Assembly: GCA_009392915.1 (NCBI GenBank)
Contig: CP045477.1
Span: forward strand, 704,001-768,000
Reading direction: 5' to 3'
From: Candidatus Forterrea multitransposorum CG_2015-17_Forterrea_25_41
GTDB lineage: Archaea; Iainarchaeota; Iainarchaeia; Iainarchaeales; CSSED10-239
Length of the DNA stretch: 64,000 bases
In this document: piece by piece, positions 17,986 to 21,102 of the stretch
How positions within the stretch are numbered: position 1 is the first letter of the stretch
Layout of the letters: every line of letters starts with the position of its first letter
Made by a program: the position numbers and the translations under genes
Notes under the pieces: generated by a model
What the model was told of the DNA's origin: nothing
Seen by the model: only the letters and a program-made list of their open reading frames with translations
Databases searched by the model: none

Positions 17986-19023
17986 TTAATTTAAACCAAG
18001 AGAAAAACACACTTCTCCATTTGAGTTTGTAACACAAACTGGTTCTAAATCATAGTATTCAGATAAATCTGGATGACTTACATAAAATGTAGCATCTCCT
18101 TCTGAAGAACTATCTGATGCTGAAAATCTATTAAGACAAAGGTTTACAGAACCATTAGAATTTGTTTGTGCACTACAAAGTGCATATTCTGGAGCATCTT
18201 GAACAGGAAGTGTAAACTCTAACATCTTTTCATCAGAATTACCATTTTGATCTATTCCTGTAAAATAAAAATTAAAAACTCCTTCTTGATTACAAGAAAT
18301 ATTACTTGCAAGTTCTTCTTCTGGATTAAGACTTGAGAAAGTATGTATGAATAATCCTTCTGCTGTTGCAGGAACTTGAGTTCCATCGTAACTACATGCA
18401 TTACTTAAAACAATTTCATTAATTGCAGAGTTATATGTTTTTACAACTAAACTAACATCAACTAATTGTTCTTCAGTTGAATTAAAATCTATACTTAAAG
18501 TTGTAGGATAAGGTTGATTTACATTTGCACTTGCTGTTGGATGTGGACTTAAATTTAAAATAAATGTATTAGGAAGAGAATTTCCATATTCACAAGAAGA
18601 ATAATCTATTTCACAAGAAACACAATTATAAACATCATTAATTAAAAAATAACCAAATGGAAGATTATCTATACAACCTTCAGAATCTGGACCTAAAACA
18701 ATAGAACCATTCACCCATTCACATTCCTCGCCAGTATTTAAAACATTATCTCCACAAACACCACCTGGAATTGGGTCAGGATCATCATTACCTACTCCTC
18801 CAGAACCACCAGCATTACCATCCCCACCGCCTACAGAACCTAAGCCATCACCATCTCCTGATGGAATATAGTTAGATAGATCTACTTCTGGTATATCTTG
18901 AGTATTATCTATTTTTTTATTAATGTTAGATAAATAAAATGTTGCAAAAACAACACTACCTAAAACTATAACACCTATAATAATTATTGCTTCTAAAGAA
19001 ACCTGTCCTTTATCTCTAATCAT
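17986..19023 (-). CDS. Class III (prepilin) signal protein with Gly/Asp linker and a Cys-rich extracellular domain
   Basis: MIRDKGQVSLEAIIIIGVIV carries the G|Q-x3-E pilin processing motif. Then GDGDGLGSVGGGDGNAGGSGGVGNDDPDP. More than 20 Cys follow. Confidence 0.5.
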   Translation of the reverse strand: MIRDKGQVSLEAIIIIGVIVLGSVVFATFYLSNINKKIDNTQDIPEVDLSNYIPSGDGDGLGSVGGGDGNAGGSGGVGNDDPDPIPGGVCGDNVLNTGEECEWVNGSIVLGPDSEGCIDNLPFGYFLINDVYNCVSCEIDYSSCEYGNSLPNTFILNLSPHPTASANVNQPYPTTLSIDFNSTEEQLVDVSLVVKTYNSAINEIVLSNACSYDGTQVPATAEGLFIHTFSSLNPEEELASNISCNQEGVFNFYFTGIDQNGNSDEKMLEFTLPVQDAPEYALCSAQTNSNGSVNLCLNRFSASDSSSEGDATFYVSHPDLSEYYDLEPVCVTNSNGEVCFSLGLN

Positions 19024-19228
19024 AACTCTCCCACCAAAATTAATAAAATATATTATTATTAGTTAATGGAAATATTTATAAAACTATTTAGTTTGGAATT
19101 TCACAACATATGATGAATAAATCATATATCTTTATAAACATTTACAACCAATATATACTTTGAAAACATAAAATCGCCTTATACCAACACCTCAACAAAA
19201 TGTTTTTAAAAAAGAGGAGAGAAATACC

Positions 19229-19879
19229 ATGACAAAAAAAGAAAACAATTTAATGTATATTAAAATTCTTTTAGGTGCAATCTTAGCAGTTTTAGTTTTA
19301 TTATTAGTATTGAATCTATCAAACAATAATAAAACAGCAGATGCTTTTTTAAAAGAAACAACAAGTAAAACAGATAACCAAGCAAATCATTTTTTAGGAA
19401 ATGAAGATGCACCTTTAGTAATGTATGAATATTCTTCTTTTACATGTCCTTTTTGTAAAAGATATCAAATAGATGATCAAACTTTTGAAACTATTAAAAA
19501 AGAATATATAGATACAGGAAAAATTAAATATGTTTATCAACACTTTGTAAGAAACGAAATAGATATTAAAGCTGCAAATGCTGCTGAATGTGCAGGAGAA
19601 CAAGATATGTTCTTTGAATATAAAAAGAAACTTTATGAAAATCAAACAGATTTACCAAAAGAAGAATTTTCAAAGTATGCACAAGAACTTGATTTAGATG
19701 TTACAGCTTTTGAAAGTTGTCTTGCAGAAAACAAATATGTAAACAAAATAACACAAGATAAACAAGATGGTGTTAATAAAGGAATTAGTGGAACACCAGG
19801 ATTTATTGTTGGTAACCAAAGAATATCTGGTGCTCAAGACTATCAAGTCTTTAAAGCAGCAATAGATGAACAACTATGA
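19229..19879 (+). CDS. DsbA-like thioredoxin-fold thiol:disulfide oxidoreductase (membrane-anchored)
   Basis: N-terminal TM segment. CPFC active site in YSSFTCPFCKRYQ. Confidence 0.65.
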   Translation: MTKKENNLMYIKILLGAILAVLVLLLVLNLSNNNKTADAFLKETTSKTDNQANHFLGNEDAPLVMYEYSSFTCPFCKRYQIDDQTFETIKKEYIDTGKIKYVYQHFVRNEIDIKAANAAECAGEQDMFFEYKKKLYENQTDLPKEEFSKYAQELDLDVTAFESCLAENKYVNKITQDKQDGVNKGISGTPGFIVGNQRISGAQDYQVFKAAIDEQL

Positions 19880-19987
19880 ATCTAAATTTACATCTATTAA
19901 AAATAATAGATGCTAATAAAACAAAGAAAGATAAATTAATTTTTATTCTTTCTTCTTTTTTTTATTTAACATCAATAATAATAGTAA

Positions 19988-20371
19988 ATAAAGTATACAT
20001 CACTTATAAAAACATTATTTTTATTTGAAAAAACTTTTTTTATAACATTTATTTTTATAAATATAATAATTGCAATTCTATTTGGAATAATTATTAATTT
20101 ACTTAGAAAAAGAATAAAAGATTCAAAAGAGATAAGACAAAAAATAGGTCTTGCACCAGTTGGTGTTTTTTTAGGAATCTTAGGTGGTGCATGTCCAGGA
20201 TGTGTAACTGGCTTATTACCTTTAATACTTAGTTTATTTGGAATAAGTTTTTCATTATTATCATTACCATTTAATGGTTTAGAATTATTATTGCTTTCAA
20301 TAATATTAATGATGGTTTCTATTTATTATTTAACAAAAGAACAAAGAGTTTGTAAAATAAATTATTTATAA
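19988..20371 (+). CDS. Three-TM membrane protein with intramembrane CPGC motif (no in-frame ATG/GTG/TTG start; possibly frameshifted with the 19876..20028 ORF, or a pseudogene)
   Basis: Open frame ...FFITFIFINIIIAILFGIIINLLRKRIKDSKEIRQKIGLAPVGVFLGILGGACPGCVTGLLPLILSLFGISFSLLSLPFNGLELLLLSIILMMVSIYYLTKEQRVCKINYL. It is absent from the ORF track. Confidence 0.35.
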   Translation: MKYTSLIKTLFLFEKTFFITFIFINIIIAILFGIIINLLRKRIKDSKEIRQKIGLAPVGVFLGILGGACPGCVTGLLPLILSLFGISFSLLSLPFNGLELLLLSIILMMVSIYYLTKEQRVCKINYL

Positions 20372-20430
20372 AAAAAATAGAAAAGAAAGATTAAATAATA
20401 TTTAACCTTTTTTATATTAATAGACAAAAA

Positions 20431-21102
20431 TTATTTTAATTTTTTAGATAACATTTCATTTTTCTTCTTTAAATCATAAATCATTCCAGCATAACCATGA
20501 ACCATATCAACAATTGTTTGAAGAGAATTTTGAAGATCAGAAATTCCAACATTTAATTTTTCTGGTTTTATAACATCAATTGCAGTTACACCATAATAAT
20601 AAATTAATCTAAATAAATGAAATAAATCAGCACAAGAAACTTCTGCAGAAATATATGTTGAAAAAAGATCATCATGAACAACTATATCTGCTAAAGTAGA
20701 ATCATACACAAAGTATGCAGAATCTTCTTTAAGAGATTTTAATATTTTTTCCATAGCTTCTCTTAAAACTGTTTTATCATCAGATTTAGATTCTATAATT
20801 ATTGAGACTCTTATTAAATTTTTATCATTTTCAGATAATTCTTTTCTTCTTTCTAAAGTTTTTTTAATTTCATCAGATAAATGATACTTAACAGGGAAAC
20901 CTTCTTTTTTAATTAACTTTAAAGAAAGCATGTTTTTTAAAACAGTTAAAATTTCTTCATAACTTGCATTTGAAAACTCTTTTTTTAAATCATCATCTGT
21001 CTTTGGAGATTTATGAAGAGATTTTGCAATTAAGTCTCTTAAGTTTTTTAAATTATTTTCTTTTTTTATTTCTTGTTCTTTAAAGGATATTTCTTCAGCC
21101 AT
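20431..21102 (-). CDS. Hypothetical protein (possible winged-helix N-terminal region)
   Basis: 223 aa. Weak wHTH-like stretch YEEILTVLKNMLSLKLIKKEGFPVKYHLSD. Confidence 0.3.
   Translation of the reverse strand: MAEEISFKEQEIKKENNLKNLRDLIAKSLHKSPKTDDDLKKEFSNASYEEILTVLKNMLSLKLIKKEGFPVKYHLSDEIKKTLERRKELSENDKNLIRVSIIIESKSDDKTVLREAMEKILKSLKEDSAYFVYDSTLADIVVHDDLFSTYISAEVSCADLFHLFRLIYYYGVTAIDVIKPEKLNVGISDLQNSLQTIVDMVHGYAGMIYDLKKKNEMLSKKLK

What the first reader, a model, noticed from the sequence alone, without database searches (positions are those of the whole stretch)
19229..20371. DsbA-like oxidoreductase followed by a CPGC-motif membrane ORF lacking a canonical start (frameshift or pseudogene?)
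After the CPFC thioredoxin-fold gene there is a 50-codon ATG ORF (19876-20028, overlapping the DsbA stop). In a +1-shifted frame there is also a 127-codon open frame (19988-20371) encoding three TM helices, with GACPGC inside the second. That frame has no ATG, GTG or TTG. The two frames overlap over 19988-20028. A single frameshift would give a roughly 165-aa four-TM protein with an intramembrane CxxC beside DsbA. This is the expected place for a DsbB/VKOR-like partner. It is either a sequencing frameshift, a recent pseudogene, or a non-canonical start.
Basis: seen in the sequence. Interest (0 to 1): 0.5.

Follow-up and report, generated by a model that had tools for sequence, protein, structure and literature searches.

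The report
Frameshifted CPxC membrane partner of DsbA
Next to a DsbA-like gene in a tiny DPANN archaeon lies a membrane-protein gene broken by one extra A; the break is a real natural allele, and the gene belongs to a widespread family with no Pfam or NCBIfam model that probably passes electrons or soft metal ions across the membrane through three cysteines.

Summary
DsbA-like gene 19229-19879 (CPFC), 50-codon ORF 19876-20028, and a +1 frame open over 19988-20371 carrying GGACPGC. The cause is one extra A in the run at 20008-20012 (A5 where intact orthologues have A4). Removing it gives a 164-aa four-TM protein 99% identical to intact P0001.

It is not a sequencing error: at least 12 other, separately assembled contigs carry the same allele. 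Close relatives show all four combinations of two A-runs 20 nt apart (A4/A5, A6/A7). These are the only indels in 1.14 kb across 27 sequences.

The protein belongs to a family with no Pfam, NCBIfam or PDB match: about 1000 clusters at 50% identity, and in the genome scan almost all loci are DPANN archaea. It has an invariant CPxC in TM3 plus one cytoplasmic-side Cys. It shows no detectable homology to DsbB, VKOR, CcdA or MerC.

The window's subfamily usually sits directly after DsbA. The sister subfamily sits after a two-Cys cupredoxin inside ArsR-CopZ-CopA clusters.

Best guess (about 40%): a cofactor-free thiol relay carrying reducing power outward, like CcdA/ScsB. Rivals: a soft-metal relay, or a DsbB-like oxidant. 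The window copy is probably inactive or only leakily expressed.

The parts
19229..19879 (+). Membrane-anchored DsbA-like thioredoxin-fold protein, 216 aa, active site CPFC at 19445-19456. Intact.
   Evidence: ORF. Pfam Thioredoxin_4 1.6e-34 and DSBA 4.7e-13. NCBIfam Rcas_1661-family thioredoxin-like lipoprotein 1.3e-41, below the curated cut-off. Variable sites among relatives by codon position 5/1/14, so under purifying selection. CPFC is the usual motif of the DPANN DsbA neighbours, 27 of 33 with a motif.
19876..20028 (+). N-terminal piece of the broken gene: cytoplasmic K-rich N-terminus, TM1 and the start of the outer loop. Ends at a premature TGA (20026-20028). The start overlaps the DsbA stop (ATGA), which suggests translational coupling.
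   Evidence: Residues 1-45 match intact P0001 except for one substitution, T32I. The exact 50-aa product is called on 15 contigs from JGI, NCBI and Logan assemblies.
20008..20012 (+). The lesion: an A5 run where intact orthologues have A4 (TATAAAAACATT against TATAAAACATT).
   Evidence: DNA alignments. Run lengths across 36 loci. One of only two indel columns in 1.14 kb across 27 sequences.
20028..20033 (+). Second variable A-run, A6 here as in intact genes. In relatives it is A7, which puts the downstream part in frame with the TTG inside ATTTGA and creates a 115-aa ORF.
   Evidence: 115-aa products P0270, P0271, P0273, P0274.
20013..20371 (+). C-terminal piece, in the frame open from 19988. 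Contains TM2, a K/R-rich cytoplasmic loop, TM3 with CPGC (20192-20203), the outer loop LPFNGLE, TM4, and the third Cys (20351-20353) in the cytoplasmic tail. No canonical start codon upstream of the motif.
   Evidence: The family alignment's invariant residues (G104, C106, P107, C109, G112, P115, G122, P131, G134, E136) are all retained in the window's +1-frame translation. AF2 model pLDDT 70.8, helices at 17-37, 52-86, 93-105, 107-120 and 135-153. Variable sites by codon position 3/0/11, with only 2 amino-acid changes.

Best explanation
Shown:
- Window 19876-20371 is one gene for a 164-aa four-TM membrane protein, split by a real single-A insertion (A4 to A5 at 20008-20012).
- The allele is shared by every sampled member of its clade, the window plus 12 other contigs.
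- The gene is the conserved downstream partner of a membrane-anchored DsbA-like protein.
- It belongs to a family with no Pfam or NCBIfam model. In the genome scan almost all loci are DPANN archaea.
- The family's conserved core is TM2 to TM4, with an invariant CPxC in the middle of TM3.
- There is exactly one further Cys, always in a K/R-rich segment that the positive-inside rule places in the cytoplasm. It is either in the TM2-TM3 loop or just after TM4.

Inferred mechanism (about 40%): a cofactor-free thiol relay.
- The cytoplasmic Cys takes reducing equivalents from the cytoplasmic thioredoxin system.
- It passes them to the mid-membrane CPxC.
- The CPxC then reduces the Cys pair of an extracytoplasmic, membrane-anchored client. 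The client is the DsbA-like protein for the window's subfamily and a two-Cys cupredoxin for the sister subfamily.
- This would be a functional analogue of CcdA/DsbD/ScsB. It would keep surface thiols reduced, most likely under copper stress.

Inferred state of this copy:
- Ordinary decoding gives only a 50-aa TM1 peptide, so function is probably lost or strongly reduced (about 55%).
- Alternatively, some product is made by leaky +1 slippage of tRNA-Lys on the A5 run, which would restore exactly the wild-type protein, or by reinitiation at a near-cognate codon (about 35%).
For: Frameshift and its reality:
- Intact 99%-identical orthologue found.
- The lesion is localised to one A.
- The same allele is in 12 other contigs from at least 11 distinct samples, from MEGAHIT, SPAdes, JGI and Logan assemblies.

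Family:
- 343 hits in the word-indexed search and 1006 clusters at 50% identity with E<=1e-3.
- All 120 best hits carry CPxC plus a further Cys in one of two alternative positions; 119 of 120 have exactly three Cys.
- Ten residues are invariant.
- No Pfam, NCBIfam or PDB match.

Topology:
- Net charge is +3.1 for the N-terminus, +3.9 for loop 2 and +1.9 for the C-terminus, against about 0 for loops 1 and 3.
- The third Cys is in loop 2 in 98 of 120 and in the C-terminus in 22 of 120.
- The fusion proteins agree with this. In P0149 the Cys-bearing tail runs straight into TM1 of a VKOR domain. In P0265 an extra TM precedes an external DsbA domain.

Clients and context:
- Window subfamily: DsbA immediately upstream in 20 of 34 loci, and in the locus in 27 of 36. 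Cupredoxin_1 immediately downstream in 14 of 36.
- Sister subfamily: Cupredoxin_1 immediately upstream in 37 of 49, ArsR immediately downstream in 26 of 47, CopA/CopZ in the locus in 36 of 50.
- Thioredoxin-reductase-like genes occur in 10 loci.
- The cupredoxins mostly have exactly two Cys and an N-terminal anchor.

Direction of electron flow (established knowledge, not tested here):
- A protein with only thiols and a cytoplasmic-side Cys has no oxidant to draw on.
- Thioredoxin, at about -270 mV, reduces DsbA-type disulfides, at about -120 mV.
- DsbD/CcdA and the copper-linked ScsB-ScsC pair work this way.
Against: - No experiment or structure supports any redox activity.
- CPFC with a Thr-cisPro loop looks like an oxidising DsbA, not a reductase.
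- One family member is fused to VKOR (P0149), an oxidising, quinone-dependent enzyme. That fits a reductant conduit poorly.
- The DsbA fusion is a singleton: no other fused protein was among the 120 best hits.
- The copper-cluster context fits a metal-binding role for the three thiols equally well.
- I could not check whether these genomes lack DsbB, VKOR, CcdA or quinones.
- For the state of this copy: within the A5A6 clade, polymorphism is too low to test for selection. Intergenic DNA also has no variable sites.
Confidence: 0.45

Rival explanations
1. Soft-metal relay or transporter. The mid-membrane CPxC and the cytoplasmic Cys form a thiolate path that hands Cu(I), or another thiophilic metal, across the membrane. 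The path would run between an external Cys-bearing protein (the cupredoxin or the DsbA-like protein) and cytoplasmic CopZ. This is the design of MerT and MerC, which take Hg(II) from MerP to the cytoplasm.
For: - The sister subfamily lies inside ArsR-CopZ-CopA clusters with cupredoxins and Met-rich membrane proteins.
- P0003's locus has ArsR next to the gene, and P0007's has cupredoxins.
- Three conserved thiols suit trigonal Cu(I) or Hg(II) binding.
- Distant members carry GCAAC, the motif of MerC TM1 as I recall it.
- An intramembrane Cys pair plus cytoplasmic-face Cys is the MerT/MerC layout (established knowledge).
Against:
- The neighbour clusters I labelled include no MerA-like reductase or other obvious metal sink; the only pyridine-nucleotide oxidoreductase is a thioredoxin-reductase-like cluster.
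- An importer beside an efflux ATPase makes little sense for copper.
- The tight pairing with a thioredoxin-fold DsbA, and the fusions to DsbA and VKOR, point to thiol-disulfide chemistry.
- The window has no metal genes at all in 64 kb.
Confidence: 0.25
2. One reading: a DsbB/VKOR-type oxidant that re-oxidises the neighbouring DsbA so that it can form disulfides in secreted proteins.
For: - Position directly after DsbA in an overlapping operon.
- Four TMs and a CxxC.
- The DsbA has an oxidase-like CPFC.
- Nearby genes encode Cys-rich secreted proteins, such as the pilin-like 345-aa protein.
Against: - It lacks the second, extracytoplasmic Cys pair that both enzymes need. Its only other Cys is on the cytoplasmic side.
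- No sequence or fold similarity to either quinone-using enzyme, and so no recognisable quinone site.
- DPANN archaea are generally described as lacking quinone synthesis and respiratory chains (general knowledge, not tested here).
- One member is fused to a complete VKOR, which argues against it being a replacement for VKOR.
Confidence: 0.12
3. The frameshifted or split gene is still functional. The TM1-TM2 loop tolerates splitting, and the TM2-TM4 core is made separately or by frameshifting. In A7 alleles it would start from the TTG. In the window allele it would come from +1 slippage on the A5 run, from a +1 shift at AUU-UGA (prfB uses CUU-UGA), or from a near-cognate start such as ATA at 20044.
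For: - All four A-run combinations exist. On the NJ tree A5 and A7 each appear in two separate clades, so there were at least 3 independent +1A events.
- These are the only indels in 1.14 kb across 27 sequences. The 41 homopolymers of 4 nt or more include T8, A7 and two T7 runs, and none of those vary. Random inactivation should hit the longest runs first.
- The C-part protein sequence is almost invariant across all alleles.
- 115-aa TTG-started ORFs are called in at least 18 contigs.
- Many family members in other lineages are 100-127 aa, start with M and cover only TM2-TM4.
Against: - The window allele has no canonical start for the C-part.
- A5 is short for efficient slippage.
- The site is not conserved, and intact orthologues exist, so this is not a programmed frameshift.
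- In the A4A7 allele the TTG is internal to the run-on N-ORF, so coupling is doubtful.
- There are only three or four events, so the statistics are thin. A rough estimate is (2/17)^2, about 0.014, within this gene.
- Within-clade data cannot show selection.
- Some short family members may be artefacts of gene calling.
Confidence: 0.3
4. Sequencing or assembly error in a homopolymer; the real genome has the intact gene.
For: The lesion is a one-base length change in an A-run of an AT-rich genome, which is a classic error type.
Against: - The same A5A6 state is in 12 other contigs from different samples and assemblers.
- It is linked to its own set of SNPs and forms its own clade.
- Neighbouring genes in the window are intact and the same length as in relatives.
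Confidence: 0.02

Closest known systems
CcdA / DsbD (beta domain) / ScsB membrane electron transporters
   Same: - Cofactor-free membrane proteins that use only cysteines next to prolines, buried in the bilayer, to move reducing equivalents from cytoplasmic thioredoxin to external thioredoxin-fold proteins.
- ScsB-ScsC is copper-linked, and ScsC is a DsbA-like protein of the same Pfam family (Thioredoxin_4) as the window's DsbA.
   Different: - No detectable sequence or fold similarity.
- 4 TMs with a 3-TM core, rather than 6 TMs in two inverted repeats.
- Both membrane cysteines are in one helix as CPxC, rather than one each in TM1 and TM4.
- There is an extra cytoplasmic-side Cys.
DsbB and VKOR (quinone-dependent DsbA oxidases)
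   Same: Four-TM proteins with a CxxC, encoded next to or fused with DsbA-like proteins. This gene has the same genomic position.
   Different: - No homology.
- No second external Cys pair and no similarity to either enzyme that would mark a quinone site.
- The CxxC is mid-membrane and the extra Cys faces the cytoplasm.
- One member is fused to a complete VKOR, so it does not replace VKOR.
MerT / MerC / MerF mercury transporters
   Same: Small membrane proteins with an intramembrane Cys pair and cytoplasmic-face Cys that relay a thiophilic metal from an external CxxC protein. They sit in a metal-regulator context, and some family members carry GCAAC as in MerC.
   Different: - No sequence match.
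- The Cys pair is in TM3, not TM1.
- The labelled neighbour clusters include no MerA-like reductase.
- The neighbours are DsbA, cupredoxin and a copper-type P1B ATPase.
Homopolymer frameshift alleles that remain leaky (poly(A) slippage in AT-rich endosymbionts; prfB-type +1 frameshifting at CUU-UGA)
   Same: A one-base change in an A-run in a very AT-rich small genome. A slip of tRNA-Lys on the same run would restore the wild-type protein. The 0-frame stop context AUU-UGA-A resembles the prfB site.
   Different: - The runs are only 5-7 nt, whereas rescue by slippage is documented for about 9 or more.
- The site is not conserved across orthologues.
- There is no expression evidence.

Membership tests
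DsbB (PF02600) | Sequence match to the DsbB profile | tested here: not met
   No hit at E<=10 for the joined protein. None among the 25 most frequent families for 120 members.
DsbB (PF02600) | Two essential Cys pairs, each in an extracytoplasmic loop | tested here: not met
   119 of 120 members have exactly three Cys: a CPxC inside TM3 and one Cys in a K/R-rich segment predicted to be cytoplasmic.
VKOR (PF07884) | Sequence match to the VKOR profile; loop Cys pair plus CxxC at the outer end of TM4 | tested here: not met
   No Pfam hit. hhalign against the VKOR domain of P0149 gave probability 0.4%. There is no external Cys pair.
CcdA / DsbD_TM (PF02683, PF13386) | Six TMs in two 3-TM repeats, with one Cys in TM1 and one in TM4; profile match | tested here: not met
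   Four TMs. Both Cys are in one helix. No Pfam hit. hhalign against a clostridial CcdA-like TM domain (sequence taken from PMC12453122) gave probability 0.3%.
CcdA / DsbD (functional class: transmembrane thiol electron conduit) | Receives electrons from cytoplasmic thioredoxin and reduces an external thioredoxin-fold partner | not testable with these tools
   Only indirect support: Cys positions and topology, DsbA adjacency, and thioredoxin-reductase-like genes in 10 loci.
MerT / MerC (PF02411, PF03203) | Profile match; mer operon context (MerR, MerP, MerA) | tested here: not met
   No Pfam hit. The conserved neighbour clusters I labelled are ArsR, a P-type ATPase cluster (CopA with small CopZ-like ORFs), cupredoxin, a membrane-anchored MarR-like protein and a thioredoxin-reductase-like protein; no MerA.
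Programmed ribosomal frameshift gene | The frameshift site is conserved in orthologues and is required to make the product | tested here: not met
   Orthologues at 97-98% DNA identity, and at 70% protein identity, are uninterrupted.
Phase-variable contingency locus | Repeat tract whose length varies at high frequency within a population | tested here: inconclusive
   Two A-runs vary between clades, with homoplasy. Within the A5A6 clade all 13 sequences have the same state. The tracts are short, at 4-7 nt. Read-level data were not available.
DsbA-like thioredoxin fold (the upstream gene) | Thioredoxin_4/DSBA profile match above the curated cut-off, CxxC active site, cis-Pro loop | tested here: met
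   Thioredoxin_4 at 119.9 bits against a cut-off of 23.2; DSBA at 49.8 bits against 25.6. CPFC at residues 73-76 and GTP at 'ISGTPGF'.

The most novel reading that the evidence does not exclude
These genes encode a previously unrecognised, cofactor-free transmembrane thiol relay, found almost entirely in ultra-small DPANN archaea with a few CPR bacteria. It has a 3-TM core, a mid-membrane CPxC and a cytoplasmic Cys. It is the missing membrane partner of DsbA-like and cupredoxin proteins in organisms said to lack quinones. It tolerates being split between TM1 and TM2, so the recurrent A-run frameshift alleles, including the one in this window, still yield a working protein.
Probability: 0.3. 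Interest if true: 0.75.

Novelty: new variant of a known kind. Interest (0 to 1): 0.55.

Why it matters
How DsbA-type proteins are recycled in organisms without DsbB, VKOR or quinones is an old open question. DPANN and CPR organisms are usually described as lacking respiratory chains, yet they export many Cys-containing surface proteins.

This family has about 1000 clusters at 50% identity. It has a fixed three-cysteine signature and is tightly linked to DsbA, two-Cys cupredoxins and copper-efflux operons. That makes it a concrete, clonable candidate for the membrane link.

It can be tested directly by complementing E. coli dsbB, dsbD or scsB mutants and by Cys mutagenesis.

The natural series of four alleles (intact, two kinds of frameshift, and the double insertion, with the two A7 alleles gaining a TTG start for the TM2-TM4 core) is a ready-made experiment on whether TM1 is needed. 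For annotation, the window's gene should be marked as a frameshifted member of this family, not as two hypothetical ORFs.

Tried and rejected
- Alternative genetic code (TGA read as sense). Reading through 20026-20028 in frame 0 runs into TAA about 20 codons later, so this is not the explanation (by eye).
- Sequencing error. Rejected by the 12 other contigs carrying the same allele.
- The afdb50 fold library was not available.
- Selection test inside the A5A6 clade. The gene has 2 variable sites, but intergenic DNA has 0, so the test is uninformative. I withdrew an earlier impression that low polymorphism meant constraint.
- An apparent split gene in L026. It is caused by N-masked bases, so it was discarded.
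- DsbA fusion as strong 'Rosetta stone' evidence. P0265 was the only fused protein among the 120 best hits, all the rest being stand-alone DsbA, so it is only weak support.
- Rfam scan of 19000-20600: nothing relevant.
- The bacterial promoter/terminator scan is not meaningful for an archaeon.
- Literature searches found no description of this family.
- VKOR, cupredoxin, ArsR, CopA and TrxR searches in the 64-kb window: none found.
Full report
**1. The observation**

The region reads as the first stage described.
- A 216-aa ORF at 19229-19879 is a membrane-anchored DsbA-like protein. Pfam gives Thioredoxin_4 E=1.6e-34 and DSBA E=4.7e-13. CPFC is at 19445-19456.
- Its stop overlaps (ATGA) the start of a 50-codon ORF, 19876-20028.
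- The +1 frame is open from 19988 to 20371 and encodes three hydrophobic segments, with GGACPGC (CPGC = 20192-20203) in the second.
- One detail is wrong. The +1 frame does contain in-frame TTG (20291-20293) and ATG (20309-20311, 20312-20314). These lie after the motif, so no canonical start could give a useful product.

**2. It is one gene with one extra base**

A hand-joined 164-aa sequence finds an intact 164-aa protein, P0001, at 99% identity and full coverage (E=2.3e-91). It also finds intact relatives down to 40% identity.

DNA alignment with P0001's contigs (L001, L002; about 98% identical) and with a 70%-identical orthologue (L003) shows a single difference in length inside the gene. 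The window has TATAAAAACATT (A5, 20008-20012) where the intact genes have TATAAAACATT (A4).

**3. It is a real allele, not an error**

- The exact 50-aa truncated product is called on 15 contigs.
- Exact matches to the window's DsbA bring in more contigs.
- In all, the window plus 12 other contigs share A5 plus A6 at 99.2-99.9% identity without gaps. They come from several JGI metagenomes, three NCBI MAGs and Logan assemblies.
- Neighbouring genes are intact and the same length as in relatives.

**4. A small allelic series**

Close relatives carry all four combinations of two A-runs 20 nt apart.
- A4A6: intact. L001, L002, L109, L117-L124.
- A5A6: the window's type.
- A4A7: L110-L116.
- A5A7: L012 and L101. 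L012 is the GTDB species representative, labelled 'Candidatus ainarchaeum sp.'.

On a neighbour-joining tree of the 1.14-kb DsbA-plus-gene region, A5 occurs in two separate clades and so does A7. That means at least three independent +1A events, or recombination between sites 20 nt apart.

These two runs are the only indel columns among 27 full-length sequences. The two genes contain 41 homopolymers of 4 nt or more, including T8, A7 and two T7 runs, and none of those vary.

With A7, the downstream part comes into frame with the TTG inside ATTTGA. Gene callers then report a 115-aa ORF covering TM2-TM4 (P0270, P0271, P0273, P0274; 18 contigs). The window's A5A6 allele gains no such start.

Across all alleles the C-part protein is almost invariant. 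Variable DNA sites fall 3/0/11 by codon position, with two amino-acid changes. Most of that signal must predate the frameshifts. Inside the A5A6 clade there are only two variable sites in the gene, and intergenic DNA has none. No statement about current selection is therefore possible.

The clustering of indels in the TM1-TM2 loop is suggestive of tolerance to splitting. It rests on three or four events.

**5. The protein family**

- A profile of the first seven hits finds 343 proteins in the word-indexed database.
- It finds 1006 cluster representatives at 50% identity with E<=1e-3 in the exhaustive search.
- None of the 120 best hits has a precomputed Pfam domain, and the few sources that name them call them hypothetical.
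- The joined protein and 120 members scanned individually give no meaningful Pfam or NCBIfam hit.
- A profile search of PDB sequences gives nothing.
- In GTDB species representatives, 77 of the 80 loci are labelled Woesearchaeota, Pacearchaeota, Nanoarchaeota/Nanoarchaeia or the 'ainarchaeum' MAG. One is Parcubacteria and two are labelled Methanosarcinales.

All 120 best hits have CPxC: CPLC 94, CPGC 19, CPSC 3, CPIC 3, CPAC 1. Each has a further Cys in one of two alternative places, and 119 of 120 have exactly three Cys.
- About 20 residues before the motif, in the TM2-TM3 loop. This is the CPLC subfamily.
- About 50 residues after it, just past TM4. This is the window's subfamily.

Ten residues are invariant: G104, C106, P107, C109, G112, P115, G122, P131, G134, E136.

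Charge counts place the N-terminus (+3.1), the TM2-TM3 loop (+3.9) and the C-terminus (+1.9) in the cytoplasm. The other two loops (about 0) are outside. The third Cys is therefore on the cytoplasmic side in both subfamilies.

The AF2 model (pLDDT 70.8, pTM 0.62) has four long helices, with TM3 broken at C106 near its midpoint.

Many representatives in other lineages are 100-127 aa, start with Met and cover only TM2-TM4. That suggests a 3-TM core.

**6. Genomic context**

I called ORFs in the 80 genome loci, clustered them and labelled the clusters with Pfam.

Window's subfamily (n=36):
- DsbA immediately upstream on the same strand in 20 of 34 testable cases, and within the locus in 27 of 36.
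- A Cupredoxin_1 protein immediately downstream in 14 of 36.

CPLC subfamily (n=50):
- Cupredoxin_1 immediately upstream in 37 of 49.
- ArsR immediately downstream in 26 of 47.
- A heavy-metal P-type ATPase or CopZ in the locus in 36 of 50.
- A Met-rich 228-aa membrane protein in the locus in 40 of 50.

Other points:
- Several loci carry both paralogues in one string: membrane-anchored MarR-like protein, DsbA, 4-TM, cupredoxin, 4-TM, ArsR, CopZ, CopA.
- Thioredoxin-reductase-like genes occur in 10 loci.
- The DsbA neighbours mostly carry CPFC. The cupredoxins mostly have exactly two Cys and an N-terminal anchor.
- Two fusions exist among 150 representatives. P0149 is family plus VKOR. P0265 is family plus a TM plus DsbA. 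P0265 was the only fused protein among the 120 best hits of a search with it.
- The window contains none of the metal genes and no VKOR. Here the module is reduced to DsbA plus the broken gene.

**7. Mechanism**

Shown: an invariant mid-membrane CPxC; one cytoplasmic-side Cys; external, membrane-anchored, Cys-pair partners encoded next door; and a copper-homeostasis setting for the family as a whole.

Inferred: the protein has no sequence or fold similarity to the quinone-using enzymes, and its only extra thiol faces the reducing cytoplasm. It cannot generate disulfides de novo. Thermodynamics favour electrons flowing outward, since thioredoxin is far more reducing than DsbA-type proteins (established knowledge).

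I therefore favour a minimal CcdA/DsbD/ScsB-like conduit (about 40%). It would keep the DsbA-like protein and the cupredoxin thiols reduced, as ScsB does for the DsbA-like ScsC under copper stress.

A MerT/MerC-style relay of Cu(I) or another soft metal through the same thiols is the main rival (about 25%). A DsbB-like oxidant is less likely (about 12%). The oxidase-like CPFC motif and the VKOR fusion are the main facts that sit badly with my preferred reading.

**8. State of the window's copy**

Standard decoding yields only the 50-aa TM1 peptide. I rate loss or strong reduction of function at about 55%.

Some expression is possible (about 35%).
- A +1 slip of tRNA-Lys on the A5 run (AAA-A to A-AAA) would restore exactly the wild-type sequence.
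- The 0-frame stop context AUU-UGA-A resembles the prfB CUU-UGA-C site. A shift there would change only five hydrophobic residues.
- A near-cognate ATA at 20044 could start a 3-TM core.

None of this can be tested without read-level or expression data.

**9. Novelty**

The frameshift itself is ordinary biology. The protein family has no entry in the curated libraries I could search, and I found no paper describing it. Its fixed three-Cys signature and its link to DsbA, cupredoxins and copper genes are new as far as those searches show.

Functionally it is most likely a new, non-homologous version of a known kind of machine: a membrane thiol relay serving an external thioredoxin-fold protein.

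Noticed in passing
window 20372-20430, compared with L001 1527-2069: Relatives with the intact or A7 alleles carry two small minus-strand genes (92 and 87 aa) between the CPGC gene and the MJ0538-like gene. The 92-aa one has weak YhaV/YafQ toxin hits, so this may be a toxin-antitoxin pair. The window's clade lacks them and has 59 nt instead.
   Followed up: partly
window 17986-19023 (- strand): A 345-aa secreted, Cys-rich protein with a weak class III (archaeal pilin-type) signal-peptide match. It is by far the most polymorphic gene within the A5A6 population, at 27 variable sites (26 per kb) plus small indels, against 0-14 per kb elsewhere. It could be a surface protein under diversifying selection and a possible DsbA substrate.
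   Followed up: partly
L078 144-689, L043 7489-8052, L053 281-1189 (cluster 11): A second membrane-protein family of about 180 aa with no Pfam match. It has a conserved HCPLC right after a signal-like N-terminus and recurs in the same DPANN metal/DsbA clusters (10 loci).
   Followed up: no
L081 2666-3352, L046 2505-2759 (clusters 2 and 7): Met/Gly-rich membrane proteins (228 aa and about 84 aa, with motifs such as MGGMMIGM) that have no Pfam match. They are conserved beside the cupredoxin, CPLC and CopA genes in 43 and 26 loci, and are probably copper-binding.
   Followed up: no
P0216 (503 aa), P0226 (343 aa): Distant family members (GCPVC motif) fused to long C-terminal domains with no Pfam match. 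P0216's domain contains CCGNSTAFPDCNHG.
   Followed up: no
L095 1-2207: One A5A6 contig has a different DsbA N-terminus (225 aa) and a membrane-anchored MarR-like/DUF7343 regulator upstream, as in the typical DPANN cluster. This points to recombination at the 5' side of the DsbA gene within the population.
   Followed up: no
P0335, P0355-P0357, P0367, P0370, P0372, P0381, P0387, P0389: A set of DPANN DsbA proteins of about 325 aa, roughly 80 residues longer than the usual 240-260 aa. I did not check where the extra residues lie or what they are.
   Followed up: no
L005 5001-7382 (P0003 locus): One close orthologue (68% identity) is not next to DsbA. It sits between a metallophosphoesterase and an ArsR, cysteine desulfurase, NifU string, so the DsbA linkage is strong but not universal.
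   Followed up: partly
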